A stretch of DNA of 64,000 nucleotides from the NCBI GenBank assembly GCA_012797845.1, contig JAAZOH010000040.1:57072-121071 (forward strand). Reading direction: 5' to 3'. Positions within the stretch are counted from its first letter, which is position 1. Each line of letters begins with the position of its first letter. The DNA comes from Candidatus Beckwithbacteria bacterium. GTDB taxonomy: Bacteria; Patescibacteriota; Microgenomatia; UBA1400; UBA1449. Positions 1 to 56,204 of this stretch are shown here, piece after piece. Made by a program: the position numbers and the translations under genes. The notes under the pieces were generated by a model. That model saw only the letters and a list, made by a program, of their open reading frames with translations. It did not search any database and was not told where the DNA came from.

Positions 1-345
1 AACAAACGGAAATAGTTTGATGGTTTCGGTTAGGTAGTTAAAAACAGCGTGAGCAAAAATTAAGAATGGGAAAAAGGGGTACTGACCATGATCCGAATCG
101 ATAAAGTAAAAATCAATGCCGTGACGCAAATGCCAACCGGCTCCGGAAAACAACATCACATCAGTAATCTCTTTTTTAATCAGAGCAATAGTTAGTAACT
201 GTAATCCCAACACTCCCCAAAATAAATATTGGTAATTAAGTTTTTTTAATCGTTTGCTAATCTTGGGAATAAATAGCAAACTAAATAAAATAGTATATAA
301 AGCAAAGAAGATTACAAATTCCTGGGTAAAGTTGGCAAATAGCAT
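1..345 (-). CDS. Partial polytopic membrane protein. The N-terminal 115 aa lie in this window and the gene continues past the window start.
   Basis: I translated the minus strand manually from the ATG at 343-345 (MLFANFTQEFVIFFALYTILFSLLFIPKIS...). There is no stop codon before position 1. The sequence is hydrophobic and TM-rich. It is missing from the ORF track because it runs off the window. Confidence 0.35.
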   Translation of the reverse strand, partial: MLFANFTQEFVIFFALYTILFSLLFIPKISKRLKKLNYQYLFWGVLGLQLLTIALIKKEITDVMLFSGAGWHLRHGIDFYFIDSDHGQYPFFPFLIFAHAVFNYLTETIKLFPFV

Positions 346-418: not shown

Positions 419-502
419 CTTTGTCATCCTGAACTTGTTTCAGGATCCATGTATATAAGCTGTTTTGAGACATAGATTCCTGCCTTCGCAGGAATGACAA
501 AG
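419..502. repeat. Short palindromic MITE/REP-like element, copy 1. Two internal hairpins are flanked by imperfect terminal inverted repeats CTTTGTCATCC / GGAATGACAAAG.
   Basis: Read from the sequence: gtcatcctgaac-ttgtt-tcaggatc and gattcctgc-cttc-gcaggaatgac. The outer ends are reverse-complementary. The same architecture recurs at 19452-19525 and 56173-56204. Confidence 0.5.
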
Positions 503-1972
503 ATGAAAGATTCTGCAATTAAAGCACATATGGCAAAAAACATCGCTACCCGCGCCACTAGATCTGTTATTGCTTTGACTTCCAGAACCTTTTTTCTTAA
601 TGTTGTCAATTTTTTAGGCGCCTTTGCCCTGACTATTTTTCTATCTCCTAAAGATTTTGGTATTTTTATTATCACTTCAACTATTGTTGATATTTTGACT
701 TATTTTTCCGATATTGGCTTGGCCGGAGCTTTAATCCAGAAAAAGAAAAAGCTTAAAAAATCTGAGATTAGTGCTACTTTCACGATTCAAATGGGTTTAG
801 TGTTGTTTTTAATTGTTGTAGCTTTTATCTTTCGCTATCAAATCAAAGATTTTTACGAATTGGATCAAATTGGGCTGGTGCTTTTATATGCCCTACTGCT
901 GTCTTTTTTCTTATCTTCTCTAAAAACGATTCCTTCGGTACTTTCCGAGCGAAAATTACGGTTTAATAATATTGTCATTCCTCAAGTTATTGAAGCCTTA
1001 GCTTTTAACAGTATTATTGTCGTTTTAGCTTGGCAGGGTTTTGGGGTTAAAAGCTATATTTGGGCTGTGTTAGCTAGAGCCCTTTCCGGAACCATTGCCA
1101 TTTATATTTTAGTGCCCTGGAAACCCAGCCTAAGTTTTAATTTTAAAGCTGTAAAGGGTTTGCTTAATTTCGGTATTCCTTTTCAGGCTAATAGTTTGAT
1201 TGCAGTTTTTAAAGACCGGGTTTCTTTATTAATTCTGGCTAAGATTATTGGCGTTGGTGGGATGGGTATCTTAGGTTGGGCTGAAAAATGGGCCAATTTG
1301 CCTTTGCGCTACTTTTTGGATTCTATGGTCAAAGTTTCCTTCCCACTCTTTTCCAGATTGCAGCATGATTTAGAAAAAGCCAAACAAGCTTTGGAACAAT
1401 CGGTTCACTTTATTACTGTCATGGTTTTTCCTTCTTTAGCCGGTGCTTACCTGCTGATGCCCCAAATTATTGATATTATTCCCAAGTATTCTAAATGGGA
1501 ACCGGGTTTATCTACTTTTAATTTATTTTTGATCTCAGCTGCCATTGCTTCAGTCTCAACCTTTTTGACCAATTTCTTGACCGCTATTGGCAAAGTCAAA
1601 ACTACCATGGGCTTGATGTTTATGTGGGCTACCTTGACTCTAACGCTCTATCCTCTTTTTGCTTATAAATTCGGTTACCACGGAGTTGCTATCGCTTCAA
1701 TTACTGTTGCTCTTACTTCTATCGTTCCCTACCTTATGGTCCGAAAAATAGTCAAGGTTGATTTATTCCGACCCATTGCTATTCCGCTACTGGCTTCGCT
1801 AGTTATGCTGGCAGTTTTAAGCCCAATTTTACCCAATTTTAAACCTGGTCTTGTCAAACTTATTGGTACCATTATTTCCGGCGGCGTGATCTATGGCGCA
1901 ATTTTATATATACTAGATGGCAAAAGATTAAGTCTACAAATTCGTAAATTTATAGCCTATGCCAAACAATAA
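494..1972 (+). CDS. Wzx-like oligosaccharide/polysaccharide flippase (MOP/MATE superfamily polysaccharide biosynthesis protein).
   Basis: 492-aa polytopic membrane ORF with ~12 predicted TM segments. It sits first in a glycan-biosynthesis gene cluster. The listed ATG lies inside the palindromic element at 419-502, so the true start may be the downstream MAKNI at ~530. Confidence 0.55.
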   Translation: MTKMKDSAIKAHMAKNIATRATRSVIALTSRTFFLNVVNFLGAFALTIFLSPKDFGIFIITSTIVDILTYFSDIGLAGALIQKKKKLKKSEISATFTIQMGLVLFLIVVAFIFRYQIKDFYELDQIGLVLLYALLLSFFLSSLKTIPSVLSERKLRFNNIVIPQVIEALAFNSIIVVLAWQGFGVKSYIWAVLARALSGTIAIYILVPWKPSLSFNFKAVKGLLNFGIPFQANSLIAVFKDRVSLLILAKIIGVGGMGILGWAEKWANLPLRYFLDSMVKVSFPLFSRLQHDLEKAKQALEQSVHFITVMVFPSLAGAYLLMPQIIDIIPKYSKWEPGLSTFNLFLISAAIASVSTFLTNFLTAIGKVKTTMGLMFMWATLTLTLYPLFAYKFGYHGVAIASITVALTSIVPYLMVRKIVKVDLFRPIAIPLLASLVMLAVLSPILPNFKPGLVKLIGTIISGGVIYGAILYILDGKRLSLQIRKFIAYAKQ

Positions 1973-11284: not shown

Positions 11285-13383
<2,099 letters not shown>

Positions 13384-14346
13384 CTACTGTTTGTTTAATA
13401 ATTGCATGTCATAATCAACCATCATTTCAATCATTTTTTGAAAATTCAGGCTTCTTTTCCACCCTAGAGTTTTTTCGGCCTTTTCAGGATTACCATAGTA
13501 GTTTTTCTTGGGAGTTTCCCGATAAAATTCAGGAGCCATTGTAACAAATTCCTCCCAGTTTAGTCCAAGTTTGCCAAAAGCTATAGTAACGATATCTTTG
13601 ACCGTATGTAATTCTCCGGTTGCCAAAATATAGTCATCAGCCTTATCCTGTTGCAACATCAGCCACATAGCTTGTACATAATCAAGTGCATACCCCCAAT
13701 CTTGTTTAGCCTCTAAATTCCCTAAAGCCAATTGTTTTTCCAAACCTAATTTGATTTTAACTGCTCCCTGGGTAATTTTGCGAGTCACAAATTCACTTCC
13801 CCGTCTTGGAGATTCGTGATTATATAAAATCCCGGAACAAGCAAAAGTATCAAAATGTTGCCTAAAAAGCTGGCAAGAAAGATGTGCACAAAGCTTAGCT
13901 ACACTATATGGATCTGGTGGATTGTAAGCTGTTTTTTCACTCTGTTTTTCTTCATCACTTTGGCCAAAGATCCGAGCTGAAGTAGCCTGGAAAAATCTAG
14001 TTTGGGGCGAAAAATCTCGAATTGCCTCTAAAATACGCAGCACTCCTAAGCCGTTAACATCATAGTTCAAAACTGGCTTGTCCCAAGAAACCGGCACAAA
14101 AGAGATTCCGCCCAAGTTATAAACTTCATCAAACTGGTATTTTCGTATCAAATTCTCAATTGAAGCTTTATCCAACAAATCGCCTTCTTCTAAAATTAAT
14201 TTATCCTTAATGTGAGTAATATTTTGTCCGCCAATGTCATTTTTGCCGCTCACCATTCCCACAACTTGATAGTCTCTCTCCAAAAGAAATTCTGATAAGT
14301 AAGACCCATCTTGGCCAGTAATACCGGTGATAAGAGCTGTTTTCAT
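13384..14346 (-). CDS. Second GDP-mannose 4,6-dehydratase paralog, tandem to gmd.
   Basis: [30 protein letters not shown]...NHESPRRG...DWGYALDYV. I trimmed the start to the internal Met (MKTALITG). By eye it is ~60% identical to the upstream copy. Confidence 0.75.
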   Translation of the reverse strand: MKTALITGITGQDGSYLSEFLLERDYQVVGMVSGKNDIGGQNITHIKDKLILEEGDLLDKASIENLIRKYQFDEVYNLGGISFVPVSWDKPVLNYDVNGLGVLRILEAIRDFSPQTRFFQATSARIFGQSDEEKQSEKTAYNPPDPYSVAKLCAHLSCQLFRQHFDTFACSGILYNHESPRRGSEFVTRKITQGAVKIKLGLEKQLALGNLEAKQDWGYALDYVQAMWLMLQQDKADDYILATGELHTVKDIVTIAFGKLGLNWEEFVTMAPEFYRETPKKNYYGNPEKAEKTLGWKRSLNFQKMIEMMVDYDMQLLNKQ

Positions 14347-14439
14347 AAAATAAAAATACAAAACTTAGAACATAAGAATATTCTAACATTTAATTGAGTT
14401 TTATATGAATTTGGGAATTCTGATACTTTATCTTTTTAA

Positions 14440-15729: not shown

Positions 15730-15784
15730 ACTCAGAAAATATAACACAAGTTAAAGGATCTGTCATTCCTGTGAAGACAGTAAT

Positions 15785-16240
15785 CTATCCTTTTAAACTG
15801 GAAGTACAATTGGGGCAACGAGTTGCTTTAGCTGGAATTTTAGTAAAGCAAAAGGGACACGTTTTATTTTTTTCTTTCTTTTCTTTTTCTTCTTTGCGTT
15901 GCAACTGATTAATTCCCTTAACCAATAAAAAGACAGCAAACGCTACGATAGTAAAATCAATAACATTATTTAAAAATATGCCATAACTAATAACTGGAGC
16001 CCCAGCTTCAGAAGCTGCAGCCAAACTGGAATAATGTTTACCTGACAAATTAATGTATAAATCAGCAAAATCAACCTTAGCCAATAAAAGTCCTAATGGC
16101 GGCATGATAATATCGCCAACTAATGAAGAGATGATTTCTTTAAAAGCTCCGCCAATAATAATACCAACTGCCAAATCAATAACATTACCCCGCATGGCAA
16201 ATTTTTTAAACTCATTGAAAAATTTTTGTAGCATAGCCAT
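15785..16240 (-). CDS. mscL: Large-conductance mechanosensitive channel MscL with a C-terminal Cys4 zinc-ribbon extension.
   Basis: The N-terminus [17 protein letters not shown] and TM2 are canonical MscL. A C-terminal CPFC...CPNC motif has been appended. Confidence 0.8.
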
Positions 16241-19439: not shown

Positions 19440-19451
19440 AGTTTCAATACA

Positions 19452-19525
19452 GTCATTCCGAACTTGTTTCGGAATCCCCTATATTAATTAAAATTAAGAG
19501 GATCCTGAATCAAGTTCAGGATGAC
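19452..19525. repeat. Short palindromic MITE/REP-like element, copy 2.
   Basis: gtcattccgaa-cttgt-ttcggaatc ... ggatcctgaa-tcaag-ttcaggatgac. There are two hairpins, and the outer GTCAT/ATGAC ends are inverted. The element lies between the rmlB start and the NUDIX stop. The NUDIX stop codon falls inside the right hairpin. Confidence 0.5.
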
Positions 19526-20076
19526 ATTTTTTTAATCTTACTTTTATATAGCATGTAAGCCCCAATTGTGGAAAGGTCCATAATTTTTCCACTAGCAATC
19601 ATGTTCTCAAAAGTAGCTAAACTAAGCAACTTTGTCTCAATTAATTCGTATTCGGCTTCTTCTTTTGATTGAGTTTTCATTTCTTTTTCAAAATCATCAA
19701 CCAAAAATACATTACCTAGTTGATTACTGTAACCAGGAGCTAGCCAGTAAGATCCAAGGTGTGTAATTTGTTTAGCTTTATAGCCAGTTTCCTCCTGTAG
19801 TTCTCGCTTGGCTGCCTGTGCCGGTGTTTCGCTACTATTTCTTGCTCCCATTGGTATTTCCCAAATCCATTGTCGCAAAGGAGCTCGCCACTGTTTTTCC
19901 AGAATAATCTTGCCATCTTTTATAGCTAAAATCACTACATAATCATTATCCCGTTCTAGTGTATAGTAATCTTTTACTTTGCCATCAGGATAGCGAATTT
20001 TCTCTTTAAAAACCTTCAACCACTTACAGTCAAAGACTTTTTTTGAAGAAACTACAGCTTTATCATCTAAACTCAT
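19516..20076 (-). CDS. NUDIX hydrolase.
   Basis: The Nudix box GARNSSETPAQAAKRELQEETGY fits GX5EX7REUXEEXGU. Confidence 0.75.
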   Translation of the reverse strand: MSLDDKAVVSSKKVFDCKWLKVFKEKIRYPDGKVKDYYTLERDNDYVVILAIKDGKIILEKQWRAPLRQWIWEIPMGARNSSETPAQAAKRELQEETGYKAKQITHLGSYWLAPGYSNQLGNVFLVDDFEKEMKTQSKEEAEYELIETKLLSLATFENMIASGKIMDLSTIGAYMLYKSKIKKMSS

Positions 20077-32359: not shown

Positions 32360-33226
32360 CTATTGCTCATGCTCTGGACATACATAGTCCATATTGTTCC
32401 GTGATTGAATGGCGGTAAACTTGAGATCGGCAGTCAAAGTATCTGTTTGAGCTGCGTTATTTACCTCTACTCCATTACAAGTAAACCCAGTTCCTCTGAC
32501 TAAAGGACCAGTTGTATCTTCAGGTAAAGGAGTCAGTGTCATTTCACCAAAGCACCAACCCTTACCAATATAATAGGTTTGCAAGCCTTTTAGAGGCAAT
32601 ACGGTGTCACCTTGATCCAATCTGGTTCTATCAAAAAAGTTAAGATACTTATCAGCTAAGGTTAATTGAATTGTATTATCAGTACCTAAAAGATTTGCAA
32701 TAGTTTCAGGCCCAAGATAGTACTTAGAGGCTTCTTCATTTTCTTCCAAAACATTGTCACCATCATCAGCCCACCAAACAAATTCAATACCTTGAGCTAG
32801 CTCACCATCCATAAGTTCAGCTGATTCTGTTGCGCAACTTGGATCATCATCTAATTCTGGTTCACTACAGCCATTATCAGCATTGCTGGTTAAAGTTAAT
32901 TCGGCACAAGCCCAAGCATCGTTATTATCAACAGTTAAATCAATGGTATCCTCACCAATATCGCCTGGCTTTATATCCGTAAAATCAAAAAACTTATTTA
33001 CTGTAGTTAAGTCAGCACTAATCCATGACGTATTTGGGCTTGCAACTAACGCACCAGTAATTTGATCTGAAACATAGCTATCATTACTTACTTTCAAATC
33101 AATTGATCCAGCAGTAAAAACATTATTAGTTGAGGTTTCGGTATCAGAAAAATATGCTTGAGTAGCATAGACGCCAATTGCCCCAACTGTAGCAATAGTT
33201 AAAACACTTAGTAAAATTTTATTCAT
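32360..33226 (-). CDS. TasA/CalY/camelysin family fibre protein with SipW-cognate signal peptide.
   Basis: The N-terminus ...VGAIGVYATQAYFSDTETSTNNVFTAGSIDLKV matches the SipW-cognate class signal (AxFSDxE.S.N.F.AGT.DL). A strong AAGGAGGTGA Shine-Dalgarno sequence lies 6 nt upstream. Confidence 0.65.
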   Translation of the reverse strand: MNKILLSVLTIATVGAIGVYATQAYFSDTETSTNNVFTAGSIDLKVSNDSYVSDQITGALVASPNTSWISADLTTVNKFFDFTDIKPGDIGEDTIDLTVDNNDAWACAELTLTSNADNGCSEPELDDDPSCATESAELMDGELAQGIEFVWWADDGDNVLEENEEASKYYLGPETIANLLGTDNTIQLTLADKYLNFFDRTRLDQGDTVLPLKGLQTYYIGKGWCFGEMTLTPLPEDTTGPLVRGTGFTCNGVEVNNAAQTDTLTADLKFTAIQSRNNMDYVCPEHEQ

Positions 33227-33293: not shown

Positions 33294-34607
33294 TTACCTA
33301 TCTGACTCTAAACAGGTATTAACTTGTACAGCATCTACTGCATCCAAATCATAGCCATCAGCATCACTTTGGCTAAAATCAGCCGGATTACTAGTATCAA
33401 CAATCCGGACAAATTTGACCCAATCAAAACCTGATCCAGAGATATCAACATAAGATACTCCAGAACTACTATCATGATTGCTAATCGTGCCAATATAGAC
33501 GAAACTATTCCCATCCTGACTTACAAAAATATCAGCTGTTTCATTGGGGTAACTAGATCGGCCATTGGTCACCTCATGGAAAGAAATGTCTCCGGCACTT
33601 ACATTCGCAGTATCGTCAACAATCGGATTAGCAAAAGACACAGTAATTTGGCCGCCAAAACCAAGGCTGACAAAATTGCCATCCAGTGCTCCCTCAACTG
33701 AAGCTGGATTGCTTCTATTAGCTAAAACCGGTGTTCCATTTTTACGTAAACCCTGCACTAGGGTAAAAGCCTGATCAGCATAAACCGAATCTTCAATACA
33801 AGTCGGACAAACAAAGCTGTCATTATGCCTGGCTTGGAAAATATTAAAAACCACGTCTGCCATAACTCTGTCTGTCTGAGCTAAATTAAGATCAGCTGTG
33901 CCATCACAAATCACCCCTGGGTTAACTGTGGGATCTTGGCCAACTGCTACTGGTGCTTTTGTTAGTGTCCCAAAGCACCAGGCTTTACCGATAAAATAAT
34001 CTTGATTACCAGCTTGCAATGGTCCGCTACCATCCCAAAGATTGTGACTTGCATCAGCTAAAGTCCATTTGCCATTGTTTATCAAAGTATAAGCCGATCC
34101 TTCAAACAATATTTTATCTAGTTCGTTATTTTCCAAAACATTGTCACCATCATCAGCCCAGAAAATCATATTGAGATTTTGAGCCAGTTCTCCATCCCAA
34201 AGATCCTCTGTATCCTCGCTGTCTCCAGCCGTCAGTTCTGGTTCATTTGCTGTGTTTTCATCATTTTGAGTTAGTGTGATATCCATACACGCCCAAGCTG
34301 GATTGTCTGCTACATGCAAGCTAATAGTATCCTCACCTAAATCCCCTGGTTTAAGATCATGAAAATCAAAAAAGAGTTGGTTGGTAAGATTAGTTAGTTC
34401 CCAAGTAGTGCTCTCCATAAGTTCTAATCCACCATCTACTGAAAAACCATTGTAGTAACTATGATTATCAACTTTTAAGTCAATTGTCCCAGCTGTCAGT
34501 GAGTTGCCAGTTGAAGTTTCAGTGTCTGAAAAATAAGCAGATGTAGCTACTACTCCAACGATTGCTACAAAACTTAGCGTTAACAGGCTTAAAAAAATTT
34601 TTTTCAT
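33294..34607 (-). CDS. TasA/CalY/camelysin family fibre protein (long paralog) with SipW-cognate signal peptide.
   Basis: N-terminus ...VGVVATSAYFSDTETSTGNSLTAGTIDLKV. The first ~150 aa are collinear with the upstream paralog, and a ~150-aa C-terminal extension is added. Confidence 0.65.
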   Translation of the reverse strand: MKKIFLSLLTLSFVAIVGVVATSAYFSDTETSTGNSLTAGTIDLKVDNHSYYNGFSVDGGLELMESTTWELTNLTNQLFFDFHDLKPGDLGEDTISLHVADNPAWACMDITLTQNDENTANEPELTAGDSEDTEDLWDGELAQNLNMIFWADDGDNVLENNELDKILFEGSAYTLINNGKWTLADASHNLWDGSGPLQAGNQDYFIGKAWCFGTLTKAPVAVGQDPTVNPGVICDGTADLNLAQTDRVMADVVFNIFQARHNDSFVCPTCIEDSVYADQAFTLVQGLRKNGTPVLANRSNPASVEGALDGNFVSLGFGGQITVSFANPIVDDTANVSAGDISFHEVTNGRSSYPNETADIFVSQDGNSFVYIGTISNHDSSSGVSYVDISGSGFDWVKFVRIVDTSNPADFSQSDADGYDLDAVDAVQVNTCLESDR

Positions 34608-56172: not shown

Positions 56173-56204
56173 GTCATTCCAAACGGGGTCCAGAATGACA
56201 AAAG
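56173..56204. repeat. Short palindromic element, copy 3 (single-hairpin version), sharing the GAATGACAAAG end with copy 1.
   Basis: gtcattc-caaacggggtcca-gaatgacaaaag. It lies between the ftsE start and the upstream gene stop. Confidence 0.4.

What the first reader, a model, noticed from the sequence alone, without database searches (positions are those of the whole stretch)
419..502. Family of GTCATYC...GRATGAC palindromic MITE/REP-like elements. Copy 1 supplies the first ATG of the listed flippase ORF
There are three clear copies at 419-502, 19452-19525 and 56173-56204, and a weaker relative at 15757-15785 (ggatctgtcattcctgtgaagacag). All share the core GTCATTCC/GGAATGAC(AAAG).

All lie in short intergenic spacers, and two of them consist of two hairpins with swapped loop sequences (cttgtt / tcaag).

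Copy 1 has terminal inverted repeats CTTTGTCATCCTG...CAGGAATGACAAAG. The 494 ATG of the listed flippase ORF lies inside its right arm, ggaATGacaaag. Either the real start is downstream, or the element has been exapted as a 5' end.

The short loops and conserved ends are more consistent with a mobilisable miniature element or a protein-binding REP than with ordinary terminators.
Basis: seen in the sequence. Interest (0 to 1): 0.6.

Follow-up and report, generated by a model that had tools for sequence, protein, structure and literature searches.

The report
Ssn-type GTCAT hairpin repeats, CPR genome
The flagged "palindromes" are real copies of a short oriented DNA hairpin repeat found in many bacterial phyla and some viral contigs, of the kind recently tied to small GIY-YIG single-strand DNA nucleases (Ssn); here they sit between genes of a Candidatus Beckwithbacteria genome and do not supply the flippase start codon.

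Summary
It is a 26-28-nt oriented hairpin, YGTC-[AT-YC-Ynnn / 4-5-nt loop / nnnR-GR-AT]-C. Copies 1 (419-502) and 2 (19452-19525) are each two such units in convergent orientation with a 22-23-bp spacer. 15761-15788 is a decayed solo unit. The 56173 palindrome is not a demonstrable member.

Four perfect units occur where about 0.001 is expected. The near-exact 25-mer is in more than 120 genome stretches across unrelated phyla and 65 viral-contig stretches. Stems covary, and the GTC before the stem and the C after it are conserved. Chenal et al. 2025 showed those positions control cleavage and binding of Neisseria NTS by the ssDNA nuclease SsnA. Unit U2 is 24/28 identical to NTS.

Small GIY-YIG genes lie 10-209 bp from units in other genomes, including a CPR genome. 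No transposase recurs near units. The element is absent from the orthologous spacer in two relatives. The flippase starts at 530, downstream of the element.

Verdict: a variant subfamily of a known kind (NTS/Ssn-related motifs) that the published search pattern misses. No nuclease gene was found in the 75 kb available for this genome.

The parts
422..448 (+). Unit U1: T-GTC-ATCCTGAA-CTTGT-TTCAGGAT-CC. Left half of doublet 1, CTTGN-loop type.
   Evidence: Perfect 8-bp stem. External covariance model gives 45.1 bits, E 6e-10. 96% complementary to U4 (I3).
472..499 (-). Unit U2, read on the minus strand: T-GTC-ATTCCTGC-GAAG-GCAGGAAT-C-TAT. Right half of doublet 1, NTS-like type. Contains the spurious ATG at 494.
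   Evidence: Perfect 8-bp stem. 24/28 identical to the Neisseria NTS consensus CGTCATTCCCGCGMAVGCGGGAATCYRG, and two of the four differences form one compensated pair (sequence compared with PMC11893778). Model score 20.5 bits, E 0.003.
419..502 (.). Doublet 1: convergent (+ then -) pair of units, GTC ends outward, 23-bp spacer, outer 9-bp inverted repeat CTTTGTCAT/ATGACAAAG. Lies in the divergent intergenic region 346-529.
   Evidence: ssDNA fold -16.4 and -17.9 kcal/mol, z -6.0 and -5.1. Same '+-' layout as 49 of 78 adjacent unit pairs in other genomes. No counterpart in relatives L124 and L127.
19451..19477 (+). Unit U3: A-GTC-ATTCCGAA-CTTGT-TTCGGAAT-CC. Left half of doublet 2.
   Evidence: 46.0 bits, E 3e-10.
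19500..19526 (-). Unit U4, minus strand: T-GTC-ATCCTGAA-CTTGA-TTCAGGAT-CC. Right half of doublet 2. Supplies the last codons (...K M S S) and the TGA stop of the NUDIX ORF.
   Evidence: 43.4 bits. ORF 19516-20076 minus strand, sequence. It is the only unit that passes the terminator-like scan.
19452..19525 (.). Doublet 2: convergent pair, 22-bp AT-rich spacer, between the NUDIX gene and the dTDP-sugar dehydratase-like gene (both on the minus strand).
   Evidence: ssDNA fold z -5.5 and -4.7.
15761..15788 (+). Unit U5: decayed solo unit of the U2 type, T-GTC-ATTCCTGT-GAAG-ACAGTAAT-C-TAT. One compensated pair and one broken pair relative to U2. Its 3' end overlaps the MscL stop codon (15785-15787).
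   Evidence: 89% complementary to 472-499 (I6). One-mismatch stem with the same C-TAT flank. Model score 13.8 bits, E 0.18. Weak fold, z -2.3.
56173..56199 (.). Palindrome GTCATTC-N13-GAATGAC in the 44-bp spacer between the ftsE-like ABC ATPase gene and a 196-aa ORF. Doubtful relative, not a demonstrable member.
   Evidence: Not found by the model at E<=10. This geometry occurs 0 times in 1.43 Mb of unit-rich loci. Weak fold. Shares the TTTGTCATTC end with U2 (3 found against 0.3 expected).
530..1972 (+). Oligosaccharide flippase (Wzx-type) CDS with its most likely true start at ATG 530. The in-frame ATGs at 494 and 503 are upstream.
   Evidence: Pfam Polysacc_synt_3 and Polysacc_synt. The NCBI protein P0001 is 480 aa and identical. 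The N-terminal alignment of 11 homologues starts at Met530 plus 0-3 residues. The ENA gene caller chose 503.
1..345 (-). 5' part of a divergent 407-aa gene with no Pfam hit. Its start codon is at 343-345, so doublet 1 lies between two divergent starts.
   Evidence: Gene table of L002 (7164-8387 minus strand, offset 8042).

Best explanation
The window carries five copies (four intact, one decayed) of a 26-28-nt oriented hairpin repeat. It belongs to the same class as the Neisseria NTS/dRS3 element and the 'Ssn-related motifs' (SRM) of Chenal et al. 2025. Each unit is YGTC, then an 8-bp Watson-Crick stem beginning AT, a 4-5-nt loop, and a C. Four of the units form two REPIN-like convergent doublets.

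Most likely mechanism: when the DNA is single-stranded (during replication, repair, uptake or transfer), each unit folds into a hairpin. A small single-domain GIY-YIG ssDNA endonuclease of the Ssn type recognises that hairpin, with binding keyed by the stem and the 3' C, and cutting keyed by the 5' GTC. The nuclease gene and its hairpins behave as a horizontally moving selfish or domesticated module, and the hairpins outnumber the gene and colonise intergenic spacers.

In this Beckwithbacteria genome the copies are insertions into spacers. Their side effects are incidental: spurious upstream ATGs before the flippase, and a new C-terminus and stop codon for the NUDIX ORF.

Shown here: the family, its flank conservation and stem covariation, its cross-phylum and viral-contig distribution, its adjacency to GIY-YIG genes elsewhere, its absence at the orthologous site in relatives, and the flippase start at 530.

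Inferred, not shown: ssDNA recognition and cleavage for this subfamily, how copies spread, and whether a cognate nuclease exists in this genome.
For: 1. Family and significance. Four perfect units against about 0.001 expected. A model trained on external units recovers U1-U4 at 20-46 bits.

2. Same class as NTS. U2 is 24/28 identical to the NTS consensus, with one compensated pair. True NTS-type hairpins (ATTCCCGCGAAGGCGGGAAT) and U2-like ones (ATTCCTGCGAAAGCAGGAAT) occur in the same loci as the CTTGN-loop type, sometimes within one doublet.

3. Functional positions conserved. The C after the stem is present in 214/216 units and 109/109 distinct units. In 138 hairpins found by stem and loop alone, GTC precedes the stem in 116 and C follows in 121. 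The paper's mutagenesis found the C immediately after the palindrome most crucial for SsnA binding, and the three nucleotides upstream most important for cleavage.

4. Hairpin under selection. 51 distinct hairpins, 202 of 216 with full 8-bp stems. 6-7 of 8 pairs change on both sides, 139 double changes against about 5 wobble cells, 99.7% paired.

5. Horizontal spread. More than 120 genome stretches across CPR, Sphingomonadaceae, Treponema, Bacteroidota, Melainabacteria, Ignavibacteria, Elusimicrobia and Dehalococcoidia. 65 viral-contig stretches.

6. Nuclease link. PF01541 single-domain ORFs lie 10-209 bp from units in L013, L028 (Kerfeldbacteria, CPR), L050 and L117, and in viral contig L191. 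Starting from the protein, L194 is carA | unit(+) - GIY-YIG - unit(-) | carB and L203 is cydA | unit(+) - GIY-YIG - unit(-) | cydB. L207 has the gene between doublets, and L195 has degenerate units. In the L194 protein, Y17 and E64 fall at the residue numbers of two of the three residues the paper mutated in SsnA (Y6, Y17, E64). These proteins are 65-85% identical across phyla.

7. Not a conserved site. Syntenic relatives L124 and L127 have spacers of 115 and 38 bp and no unit in 35 kb, even with the model.

8. No orientation rule relative to flanking genes (29 same, 24 opposite) and 84% outside long ORFs.
Against: - No GIY-YIG gene lies in the window or in the roughly 11 kb of extra contig sequence I could read, about 75 kb in all. 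None of the 135 relatives of the CPR GIY-YIG fragment is named as Beckwithbacteria. A cognate nuclease in this genome is therefore unproven.
- The published SRM search pattern matches none of the window units and only 3 of 216 external units. Membership of the published family holds in a broad sense only.
- From the motif side only 6 of 185 loci carry a GIY-YIG gene, so most copies are orphans and the link is statistical.
- I could not compare these GIY-YIG proteins directly with SsnA or cd10448, because neither the sequence nor the model was available. PDB gave only weak UPF0213 matches.
- Gene-unit geometry is not uniform: the gene is inside a '+-' pair in L194 and L203, and between pairs in L050 and L207.
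- No biochemical data exist for this subfamily.
Confidence: 0.65

Rival explanations
1. REP/REPIN-type elements mobilised by a RAYT or IS200/IS605 TnpA (Y1 HUH transposase). On this view the doublets are REPINs and a single-copy transposase elsewhere in the genome copies them.
For: The architecture matches REPINs: two hairpin repeats in inverted orientation with a short spacer, intergenic, with no target-site duplication (REPIN definition in PMC3337134, listed). Only about 75 kb of this genome could be inspected, so a distant transposase gene cannot be excluded.
Against: No transposase Pfam family appears in any called gene of the window. None appears among the 150 small ORFs within 74 bp of units in 185 loci. 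All-against-all clustering of ORFs within 1 kb of units finds no transposase-like cluster. The genes that units actually bracket are GIY-YIG nucleases. The conserved 5' signature is GTC, as in NTS, rather than the GTAG-type REP head (the latter is from my own knowledge).
Confidence: 0.06
2. RNA-level elements: intrinsic terminators, mRNA-stabilising hairpins or translational regulators that act in the transcripts of the neighbouring genes.
For: The hairpins are stable and sit between genes. U4 with its T-rich tail passes a terminator-like scan on both strands. U2 lies 31 nt upstream of the flippase start, and its AGGAA could pair or act as a decoy Shine-Dalgarno site. Secondary exaptation of individual copies is compatible with the main explanation.
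Against: Three of the four intact units lack a T-tract, and the terminator-like count is at chance (16 found against 14.9 expected). Doublet 1 sits between divergent gene starts, where a terminator has no role. Unit orientation is unrelated to flanking gene direction (29 against 24). Terminators do not need loop sequence and GTC/C flanks conserved across phyla. Wobble pairs are almost absent. SsnA does not interact with RNA (PMC11893778).
Confidence: 0.1
3. Recombination or integration target sites, in the way Neisseria dRS3 serves as the attachment site for a phage recombinase. On this view the hairpins are landing pads for an integrase or an IS110-type element rather than nuclease substrates.
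For: The paper states that dRS3, the core of NTS, is the target of a specific phage recombinase (introduction of PMC11893778). Units occur on 65 viral-contig stretches.
Against: No integrase or IS110-type gene lies next to the window copies. None recurs near units elsewhere. Both doublets are intact with short spacers and nothing is inserted in them.
Confidence: 0.07
4. A lineage-specific protein-binding operator that regulates the polysaccharide-synthesis genes, or a chance palindrome.
For: Five of the six sites lie in the first 20 kb of the window, a region rich in sugar-nucleotide and glycosyltransferase genes.
Against: Syntenic relatives with the same gene cluster lack the site. Near-identical sequence occurs in unrelated contexts across many phyla and on viral contigs. 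Chance is excluded.
Confidence: 0.02

Closest known systems
Neisseria Transformation Sequence (NTS, which contains dRS3) and Ssn-related motifs (SRM), with the SsnA GIY-YIG ssDNA endonuclease (Chenal et al., Nat Commun 2025, PMC11893778)
   Same: An oriented hairpin repeat of about 28 nt with a (C/T)GTCAT head, a stem that starts ATTCC or ATCC and ends GGAAT or GGAT, and an obligatory C after the stem. It is multicopy, mostly intergenic, and found across phyla next to small single-domain GIY-YIG genes. U2 is 24/28 identical to the NTS consensus.
   Different: Most units here and in the 185 external loci have an AT-richer stem (YC-YGAA) and a conserved CTTGN loop, and the published SRM pattern misses them (0 of 6 in the window, 3 of 216 elsewhere). 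The strict dRS3 pattern ATTCCC-N8-GGGAAT is not met. The host is a CPR bacterium. The dominant arrangement is a convergent doublet. No ssn gene was found in the sequence available for this genome. No biochemistry exists for this subfamily.
REPINs and RAYTs (Bertels and Rainey 2011; PMC3116915, PMC3337134)
   Same: A doublet of two hairpin repeats in inverted orientation separated by a short spacer. It is non-coding and intergenic, is far more numerous than the associated enzyme gene, and that gene is itself flanked by the repeats.
   Different: The associated enzyme is a GIY-YIG nuclease of about 65-100 aa, not a Y1 HUH transposase. The distribution looks horizontal (near-identical units and 65-85% identical nucleases across phyla and on viral contigs), whereas REPIN-RAYT systems are described as vertically inherited (abstracts).
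Neisseria intergenic mosaic elements (NIMEs) and Correia-type MITEs
   Same: Short repeats built from dRS3-like hairpins that fill intergenic spacers and can alter neighbouring gene ends. Regular arrays of units are seen in L031, L032 and L082.
   Different: The window copies show no conserved internal repeat segment between the hairpins, no target-site duplication and no DDE-transposase-type terminal repeats. This comparison rests on my own knowledge of NIMEs and Correia elements and was not tested here.

Membership tests
NTS / Ssn-related motif (SRM) hairpin repeats (PMC11893778) | Oriented non-palindromic 5' flank (C/T)GTCAT immediately upstream of the palindrome | tested here: met
   All five window units have T/A-GTC-AT. 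GTC precedes 116 of 138 hairpins that were found without using the flank.
NTS / Ssn-related motif (SRM) hairpin repeats (PMC11893778) | Cytosine immediately 3' of the palindrome (the most crucial base for SsnA binding) | tested here: met
   C follows the stem in U1-U5, in 214 of 216 external units, in 109 of 109 distinct units and in 121 of 138 independently found hairpins.
NTS / Ssn-related motif (SRM) hairpin repeats (PMC11893778) | Semi-palindrome of about 20 nt that forms a hairpin, maintained by compensatory change | tested here: met
   Perfect 8-bp stems in U1-U4. ssDNA fold z between -4.7 and -6.0 for the doublets. 6-7 of 8 pairs change on both sides and 99.7% of cells are paired.
NTS / Ssn-related motif (SRM) hairpin repeats (PMC11893778) | Match to the published degenerate SRM pattern HGTCWYN(0-2)YYVSBRHN(0-5)WNVSBRGN(0-2)RNCYNB | tested here: not met
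   0 matches in the window and 3 of 216 external units. The NTS positive control matches. The pattern requires a GC-rich inner stem.
NTS / Ssn-related motif (SRM) hairpin repeats (PMC11893778) | Match to the NTS consensus CGTCATTCCCGCGMAVGCGGGAATCYRG with at most 1 mismatch (the paper's criterion) | tested here: not met
   The best unit, U2, differs at 4 of 28 positions, and two of those form a compensated pair.
NTS / Ssn-related motif (SRM) hairpin repeats (PMC11893778) | Spatial association with a small single-domain GIY-YIG (cd10448, Ssn) gene | tested here: inconclusive
   Met for the subfamily in other genomes: units lie 10-209 bp from PF01541 genes in L013, L028, L050, L117, L191, L194, L203 and L207. 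Not met within the 75 kb readable for this genome. The cd10448 assignment could not be checked, and only the residue numbering (Y17, E64) agrees.
NTS / Ssn-related motif (SRM) hairpin repeats (PMC11893778) | Bound and cut by Ssn only as ssDNA, in one orientation | not testable with these tools
   Needs purified protein and oligonucleotide assays.
dRS3 (Neisseria) | ATTCCC-N8-GGGAAT | tested here: not met
   U2 is ATTCCT-N8-AGGAAT. The other units have different stems.
REPIN / RAYT | Two repeats in inverted orientation with a short spacer | tested here: met
   Doublets at 419-502 and 19452-19525. The '+-' arrangement accounts for 49 of 78 adjacent pairs elsewhere.
REPIN / RAYT | A cognate Y1 (HUH) REP-associated tyrosine transposase flanked by the repeats | tested here: not met
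   None in the window's called genes. None in the Pfam census of the 150 nearest small ORFs. No recurrent cluster. The whole genome was not available.
Classical MITE (derived from a DDE-transposase IS) | Terminal inverted repeats plus a target-site duplication | tested here: not met
   Doublet 1 has a 9-bp inverted repeat, CTTTGTCAT/ATGACAAAG, but neither doublet is flanked by a direct repeat (sequence).
Intrinsic terminator | GC-rich hairpin followed directly by a T-tract, oriented with the upstream gene | tested here: not met
   Only U4 qualifies. U1, U2 and U3 do not, and scan totals are at chance.

The most novel reading that the evidence does not exclude
The CTTGN-loop GTCAT hairpins are the non-autonomous, REPIN-like population of a pan-bacterial and phage-borne mobile module whose 'transposase' is an Ssn-type GIY-YIG ssDNA endonuclease of about 70-90 aa. 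That would be a transposition or homing chemistry not yet described. The published SRM pattern misses most of this population (3 of 216 units), so its true extent, including in CPR bacteria with minimal genomes, would be much larger than reported.
Probability: 0.3. Interest if true: 0.75.

Novelty: new variant of a known kind. Interest (0 to 1): 0.45.

Why it matters
Practical consequences:
- These hairpins create spurious ORFs (…VIPAKAGI…, …ILKQVQDD…) and false start codons. Three pipelines chose three different starts for this flippase.
- They rewrite gene ends, as with the NUDIX C-terminus.
- They may break metagenome assemblies: many of the associated GIY-YIG genes sit on contigs under 2 kb.

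Biological consequences:
- The class was tied to a site-specific ssDNA nuclease only in 2025, and how the hairpins multiply is still unknown.
- A subfamily that is nearly identical across phyla, is carried on viral contigs, forms REPIN-like doublets, and brackets a tiny nuclease gene wedged inside conserved operons (carA/carB, cydA/cydB) is a good system for working out that mechanism.
- Widening the search pattern would improve repeat annotation, and could turn up new ssDNA-cutting specificities for the tool uses the Ssn paper proposes.

Tried and rejected
- Rfam (gathering thresholds) and a tRNA scan of the window found nothing.
- A GIY-YIG search of the window by motif regex, by tblastn with sequences recalled from memory, and later by an HMM found nothing.
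- Walking along the 124-kb contig was blocked beyond about 8 kb upstream and 2.8 kb downstream, because only window proteins can be looked up. The extra flanks held no unit.
- The look-up of NCBI protein P0001 found no record.
- NUDIX homologues were too distant, or on contigs too short, to compare the orthologous junction of doublet 2.
- PDB sequence search gave no SsnA structure, only weak UPF0213 hits. The paper's supplementary tables are not held.
- I considered that the 56173 palindrome is a '+-' doublet collapsed by recombination between two units. I rejected it as a recurring form because it occurs 0 times in 1.43 Mb.
- I considered that the doublets are the empty envelope of a unit-gene-unit element. 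L194 and L203 support this, but L050 and L207 do not (the gene lies between doublets), so I kept it only as a possibility.
- A promoter-like hit uses U5's TGTCAT as a -35 hexamer (15766-15738, minus strand). Promoter-like counts are at chance (59 found against 61.9 expected), so I did not pursue it.
- Literature searches for the exact DNA strings and for their translated peptides returned no papers.
- The metagenome-collection scan was not used, because the genome and viral scans were sufficient.
Full report
**1. What is in the sequence.**
Parsing them shows that the repeating entity is not the long palindrome. It is a 26-28-nt oriented hairpin: Y-GTC, an 8-bp stem beginning AT, a 4-5-nt loop, the complementary arm, then C.

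The window holds four intact units:
- U1, 422-448 (+)
- U2, 499-472 (-)
- U3, 19451-19477 (+)
- U4, 19526-19500 (-)

Each is a convergent doublet with the GTC ends outward and a 22-23-bp non-conserved spacer. The 'swapped loops' of copy 2 are simply CTTGT and the reverse complement of CTTGA. Copy 1 combines a CTTGT-loop unit with a GAAG-loop unit.

The site at 15761-15788 (U5) is a decayed solo unit of the U2 type. It is 89% identical to U2 including the C-TAT flank, with one compensated pair and one broken pair.

The 56173-56199 palindrome has a different geometry (GTCATTC-N13-GAATGAC).

**2. Is it more than chance?**
The window has four units of GTCAT + perfect 8-bp stem + C. None appeared in 100 first-order Markov simulations, and the analytic expectation is about 0.001.

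A covariance model (R1) built only from 109 distinct units of other genomes was run on the window with filters off:

| Unit | Score | E-value |
|---|---|---|
| U3 | 46.0 bits | 3e-10 |
| U1 | 45.1 bits | 6e-10 |
| U4 | 43.4 bits | 2e-9 |
| U2 | 20.5 bits | 0.003 |
| U5 | 13.8 bits | 0.18 |
| 56173 palindrome | not found | >10 |

The 56173 palindrome also folds weakly, and its collapsed form never occurs in 1.43 Mb of unit-rich loci. It shares only TTTGTCATTC with the family. I treat it as a doubtful relative.

**3. Organism and context.**
Proteins identical to those in the window are annotated at NCBI as Candidatus Beckwithbacteria, in the Patescibacteria/CPR. The window is bases 57058-121057 of ENA contig ERZ928041 k127_38915. 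It has 37.3% GC, no tRNA genes and no Rfam hit.

- Doublet 1 lies in a divergent intergenic region (346-529), between a 407-aa gene of unknown function and the flippase.
- Doublet 2 lies between the NUDIX gene and a sugar-dehydratase-like gene, both on the minus strand. U4 provides the last codons and the TGA stop of the NUDIX ORF.
- U5 overlaps the MscL stop codon.

**4. The flippase start.**
The mechanical ORF starts at 494, inside U2. The ENA gene caller chose 503. NCBI annotates the identical protein from 530, giving 480 aa. The homologues are mostly 480-484 aa, and in the alignment all eleven begin within 0-3 residues of Met530. None has a counterpart for the 9-12 extra residues. The true start is therefore almost certainly 530, and the element is entirely 5' of the gene.

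**5. Distribution elsewhere.**
Hosts include CPR groups (Gracilibacteria, Kerfeldbacteria, Parcubacteria, Roizmanbacteria), Sphingomonadaceae, Treponema, many Bacteroidota, Melainabacteria, Ignavibacteria, Elusimicrobia, Dehalococcoidia and others. It also hit 65 stretches of IMG/VR viral contigs.

Within the 120 bacterial loci (872 kb) there are 216 GTCAT-hairpin units and 51 distinct hairpins. Of these, 202 have a full 8-bp stem, 198 have a 5-nt loop, and C follows the stem in 214.

The stems covary (CC/GG, GC/GC, TC/GA, TG/CA and others). Six or seven of the eight pairs show changes on both sides. Model-derived hits are 99.7% paired, with 139 double changes against about 5 wobble cells. That suits a Watson-Crick DNA hairpin better than an RNA helix, with the caveat that the alignment was fitted to the model.

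The unit finder anchored on GTCAT, so I repeated the flank test on 138 hairpins found by stem and loop alone, excluding those matching the scan pattern. GTC precedes 116 of them and C follows 121.

Adjacent units are mostly '+-' doublets with 5-90-bp spacers (49 of 78), the same form as in the window.

**6. What is known.**
A full-text search for GTCATTCC led to Chenal et al. 2025 (PMC11893778). They define the Neisseria Transformation Sequence, CGTCATTCCCGCGMAVGCGGGAATCYRG, which contains dRS3. They show it is bound and cut, only as ssDNA and only in one orientation, by the small GIY-YIG nuclease SsnA. In their mutagenesis the C immediately after the palindrome is most crucial for binding, and the three nucleotides upstream matter most for cleavage. 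Homologous nucleases across phyla are flanked by 'Ssn-related motifs', and the paper notes that the NTS-ssnA-NTS layout resembles an insertion sequence.

U2 is 24/28 identical to NTS, and two of the four differences form a compensated pair. The positions conserved in the present family are exactly the functionally critical ones.

However, the published SRM pattern matches none of the window units and only 3 of the 216 external units, although it does match the NTS control. The exact DNA strings and their translated peptide signatures occur in no searchable paper. The CTTGN-loop, AT-richer-stem subfamily therefore appears undescribed, or at least uncounted.

**7. The nuclease link for this subfamily.**
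Starting from the motif: an HMM seeded from two ORFs found next to units detects PF01541 single-domain ORFs in 5 of 120 bacterial loci, four of them 10-209 bp from a unit. One is in a Kerfeldbacteria (CPR) genome. There is one more in a viral contig, 47 bp from a unit.

Starting from the protein: relatives of the CPR fragment are 65-91-aa single-domain GIY-YIG proteins, 65-85% identical across unrelated phyla and often on very short contigs. The four contexts I could fetch are:
- L194: carA | unit(+) - 48 bp - gene - 17 bp - unit(-) | carB
- L203: cydA | unit(+) - 67 bp - gene - 10 bp - unit(-) | cydB
- L195: nurA | degenerate units and gene | herA
- L207: gene between doublets, with a perfect 18-bp-spacer doublet 120 bp downstream

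In the L194 protein, Y17 and E64 fall at the residue numbers of two of the three residues the paper mutated in SsnA (Y6, Y17, E64).

No other family recurs near units. Clustering of ORFs within 1 kb finds only GIY-YIG and unrelated phage genes. A Pfam census of the 150 small ORFs within 74 bp of units finds no transposase.

**8. This genome.**
No GIY-YIG gene or transposase is present in the window or in the extra 11 kb I could read. I could not reach the rest of the contig or genome.

Two relatives with the same gene cluster and the same GC content (flippase 62-64% identical) have 115-bp and 38-bp spacers upstream of the flippase. They have no unit in 35 kb, even with the covariance model. 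The copies are therefore insertions in this lineage rather than conserved sites.

**9. Alternatives.**
- Terminators: only U4 qualifies, counts are at chance, and doublet 1 lies between divergent starts.
- Orientation relative to flanking genes is random: 29 same, 24 opposite.
- REPIN/RAYT: the architecture fits, but the enzyme does not.
- Classical MITE: there is no target-site duplication.
- Operator: refuted by absence in relatives and by the cross-phylum spread.
- Integration target, as dRS3 is for a phage recombinase: not excluded, but nothing is inserted at the copies and no recombinase gene lies nearby.

**10. Conclusion.**
The finding is a real, non-random repeat family. The specific partner (IS200/IS605 TnpA) does not, and the third copy does not belong.

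The best-supported reading is an NTS/SRM-class ssDNA hairpin repeat, organised as REPIN-like doublets and linked to Ssn-type GIY-YIG nucleases. It is present here as a subfamily that the published pattern misses, in a CPR genome. How the copies spread, and whether a cognate nuclease exists in this genome, remain inferred.

Noticed in passing
window 19516-19527 (minus strand): The NUDIX ORF reads into unit U4 and ends ...K-M-S-S-TGA, so the hairpin insertion supplies the last codons and the stop codon. Close NUDIX homologues were too few to tell what the ancestral C-terminus was.
   Followed up: partly
window 494 / 503 / 530: Three different start codons are in use for the same flippase: 494 (mechanical ORF), 503 (ENA contig gene caller) and 530 (NCBI). 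The two upstream ATGs are created by, or lie next to, the hairpin element. The homologue alignment favours 530.
   Followed up: yes
window 424-675 (minus strand): A spurious 83-aa ORF runs through doublet 1 and contains ...FVIPAKAGIY..., the translation of unit U2. ORFs across units in other loci carry ...ILKQVQDD... or ...MLNLFQHL... These are recurrent artefact peptides that could contaminate protein databases.
   Followed up: partly
L194 3001-3273, L203 2001-2264, L195 2001-2270: Small GIY-YIG genes with flanking hairpins are wedged into the spacers of conserved gene pairs: carA|carB, cydA|cydB and nurA|herA. This behaviour resembles free-standing homing endonuclease genes.
   Followed up: partly
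L148, L149, L167 (IMG/VR viral contigs): Some viral contigs carry 5-9 units, all on the same strand. Bacterial loci mostly show convergent doublets. This might reflect strand-specific exposure as ssDNA, or co-orientation with phage transcription.
   Followed up: no
L031 1485-1681, L032 47-248, L082 143-948: Regular arrays of units or doublets at spacings of about 40-150 bp, reminiscent of Neisseria intergenic mosaic elements.
   Followed up: no
window 12403-13371 and 13384-14361 (minus strand): Two tandem paralogous NAD-dependent epimerase/dehydratase genes, with 73-79% nucleotide identity over several segments at an offset of 975 bp (D1, D2, D4).
   Followed up: no
window 32735-32823 and 34122-34210 (minus strand): An 89-nt segment 75% identical between the adjacent 288-aa and 437-aa ORFs, neither with a confident Pfam hit. 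They are probably paralogous surface or secreted proteins.
   Followed up: no
window 15766-15738 (minus strand): The TGTCAT head of U5 read on the minus strand (ATGACA), followed 17 nt later by TG-TATATT, scores as a sigma-70-like promoter pointing at the UDP-glucose dehydrogenase gene. Promoter-like counts overall are at chance.
   Followed up: no
P0144-P0263: The GIY-YIG relatives are 65-85% identical across Kerfeldbacteria, Chloroflexia, Dehalococcoidia, Ignavibacteria, Terriglobia, Deltaproteobacteria and a Firmicute. Many lie on contigs under 2 kb, which suggests recent horizontal transfer and assembly breakage at the flanking repeats.
   Followed up: partly
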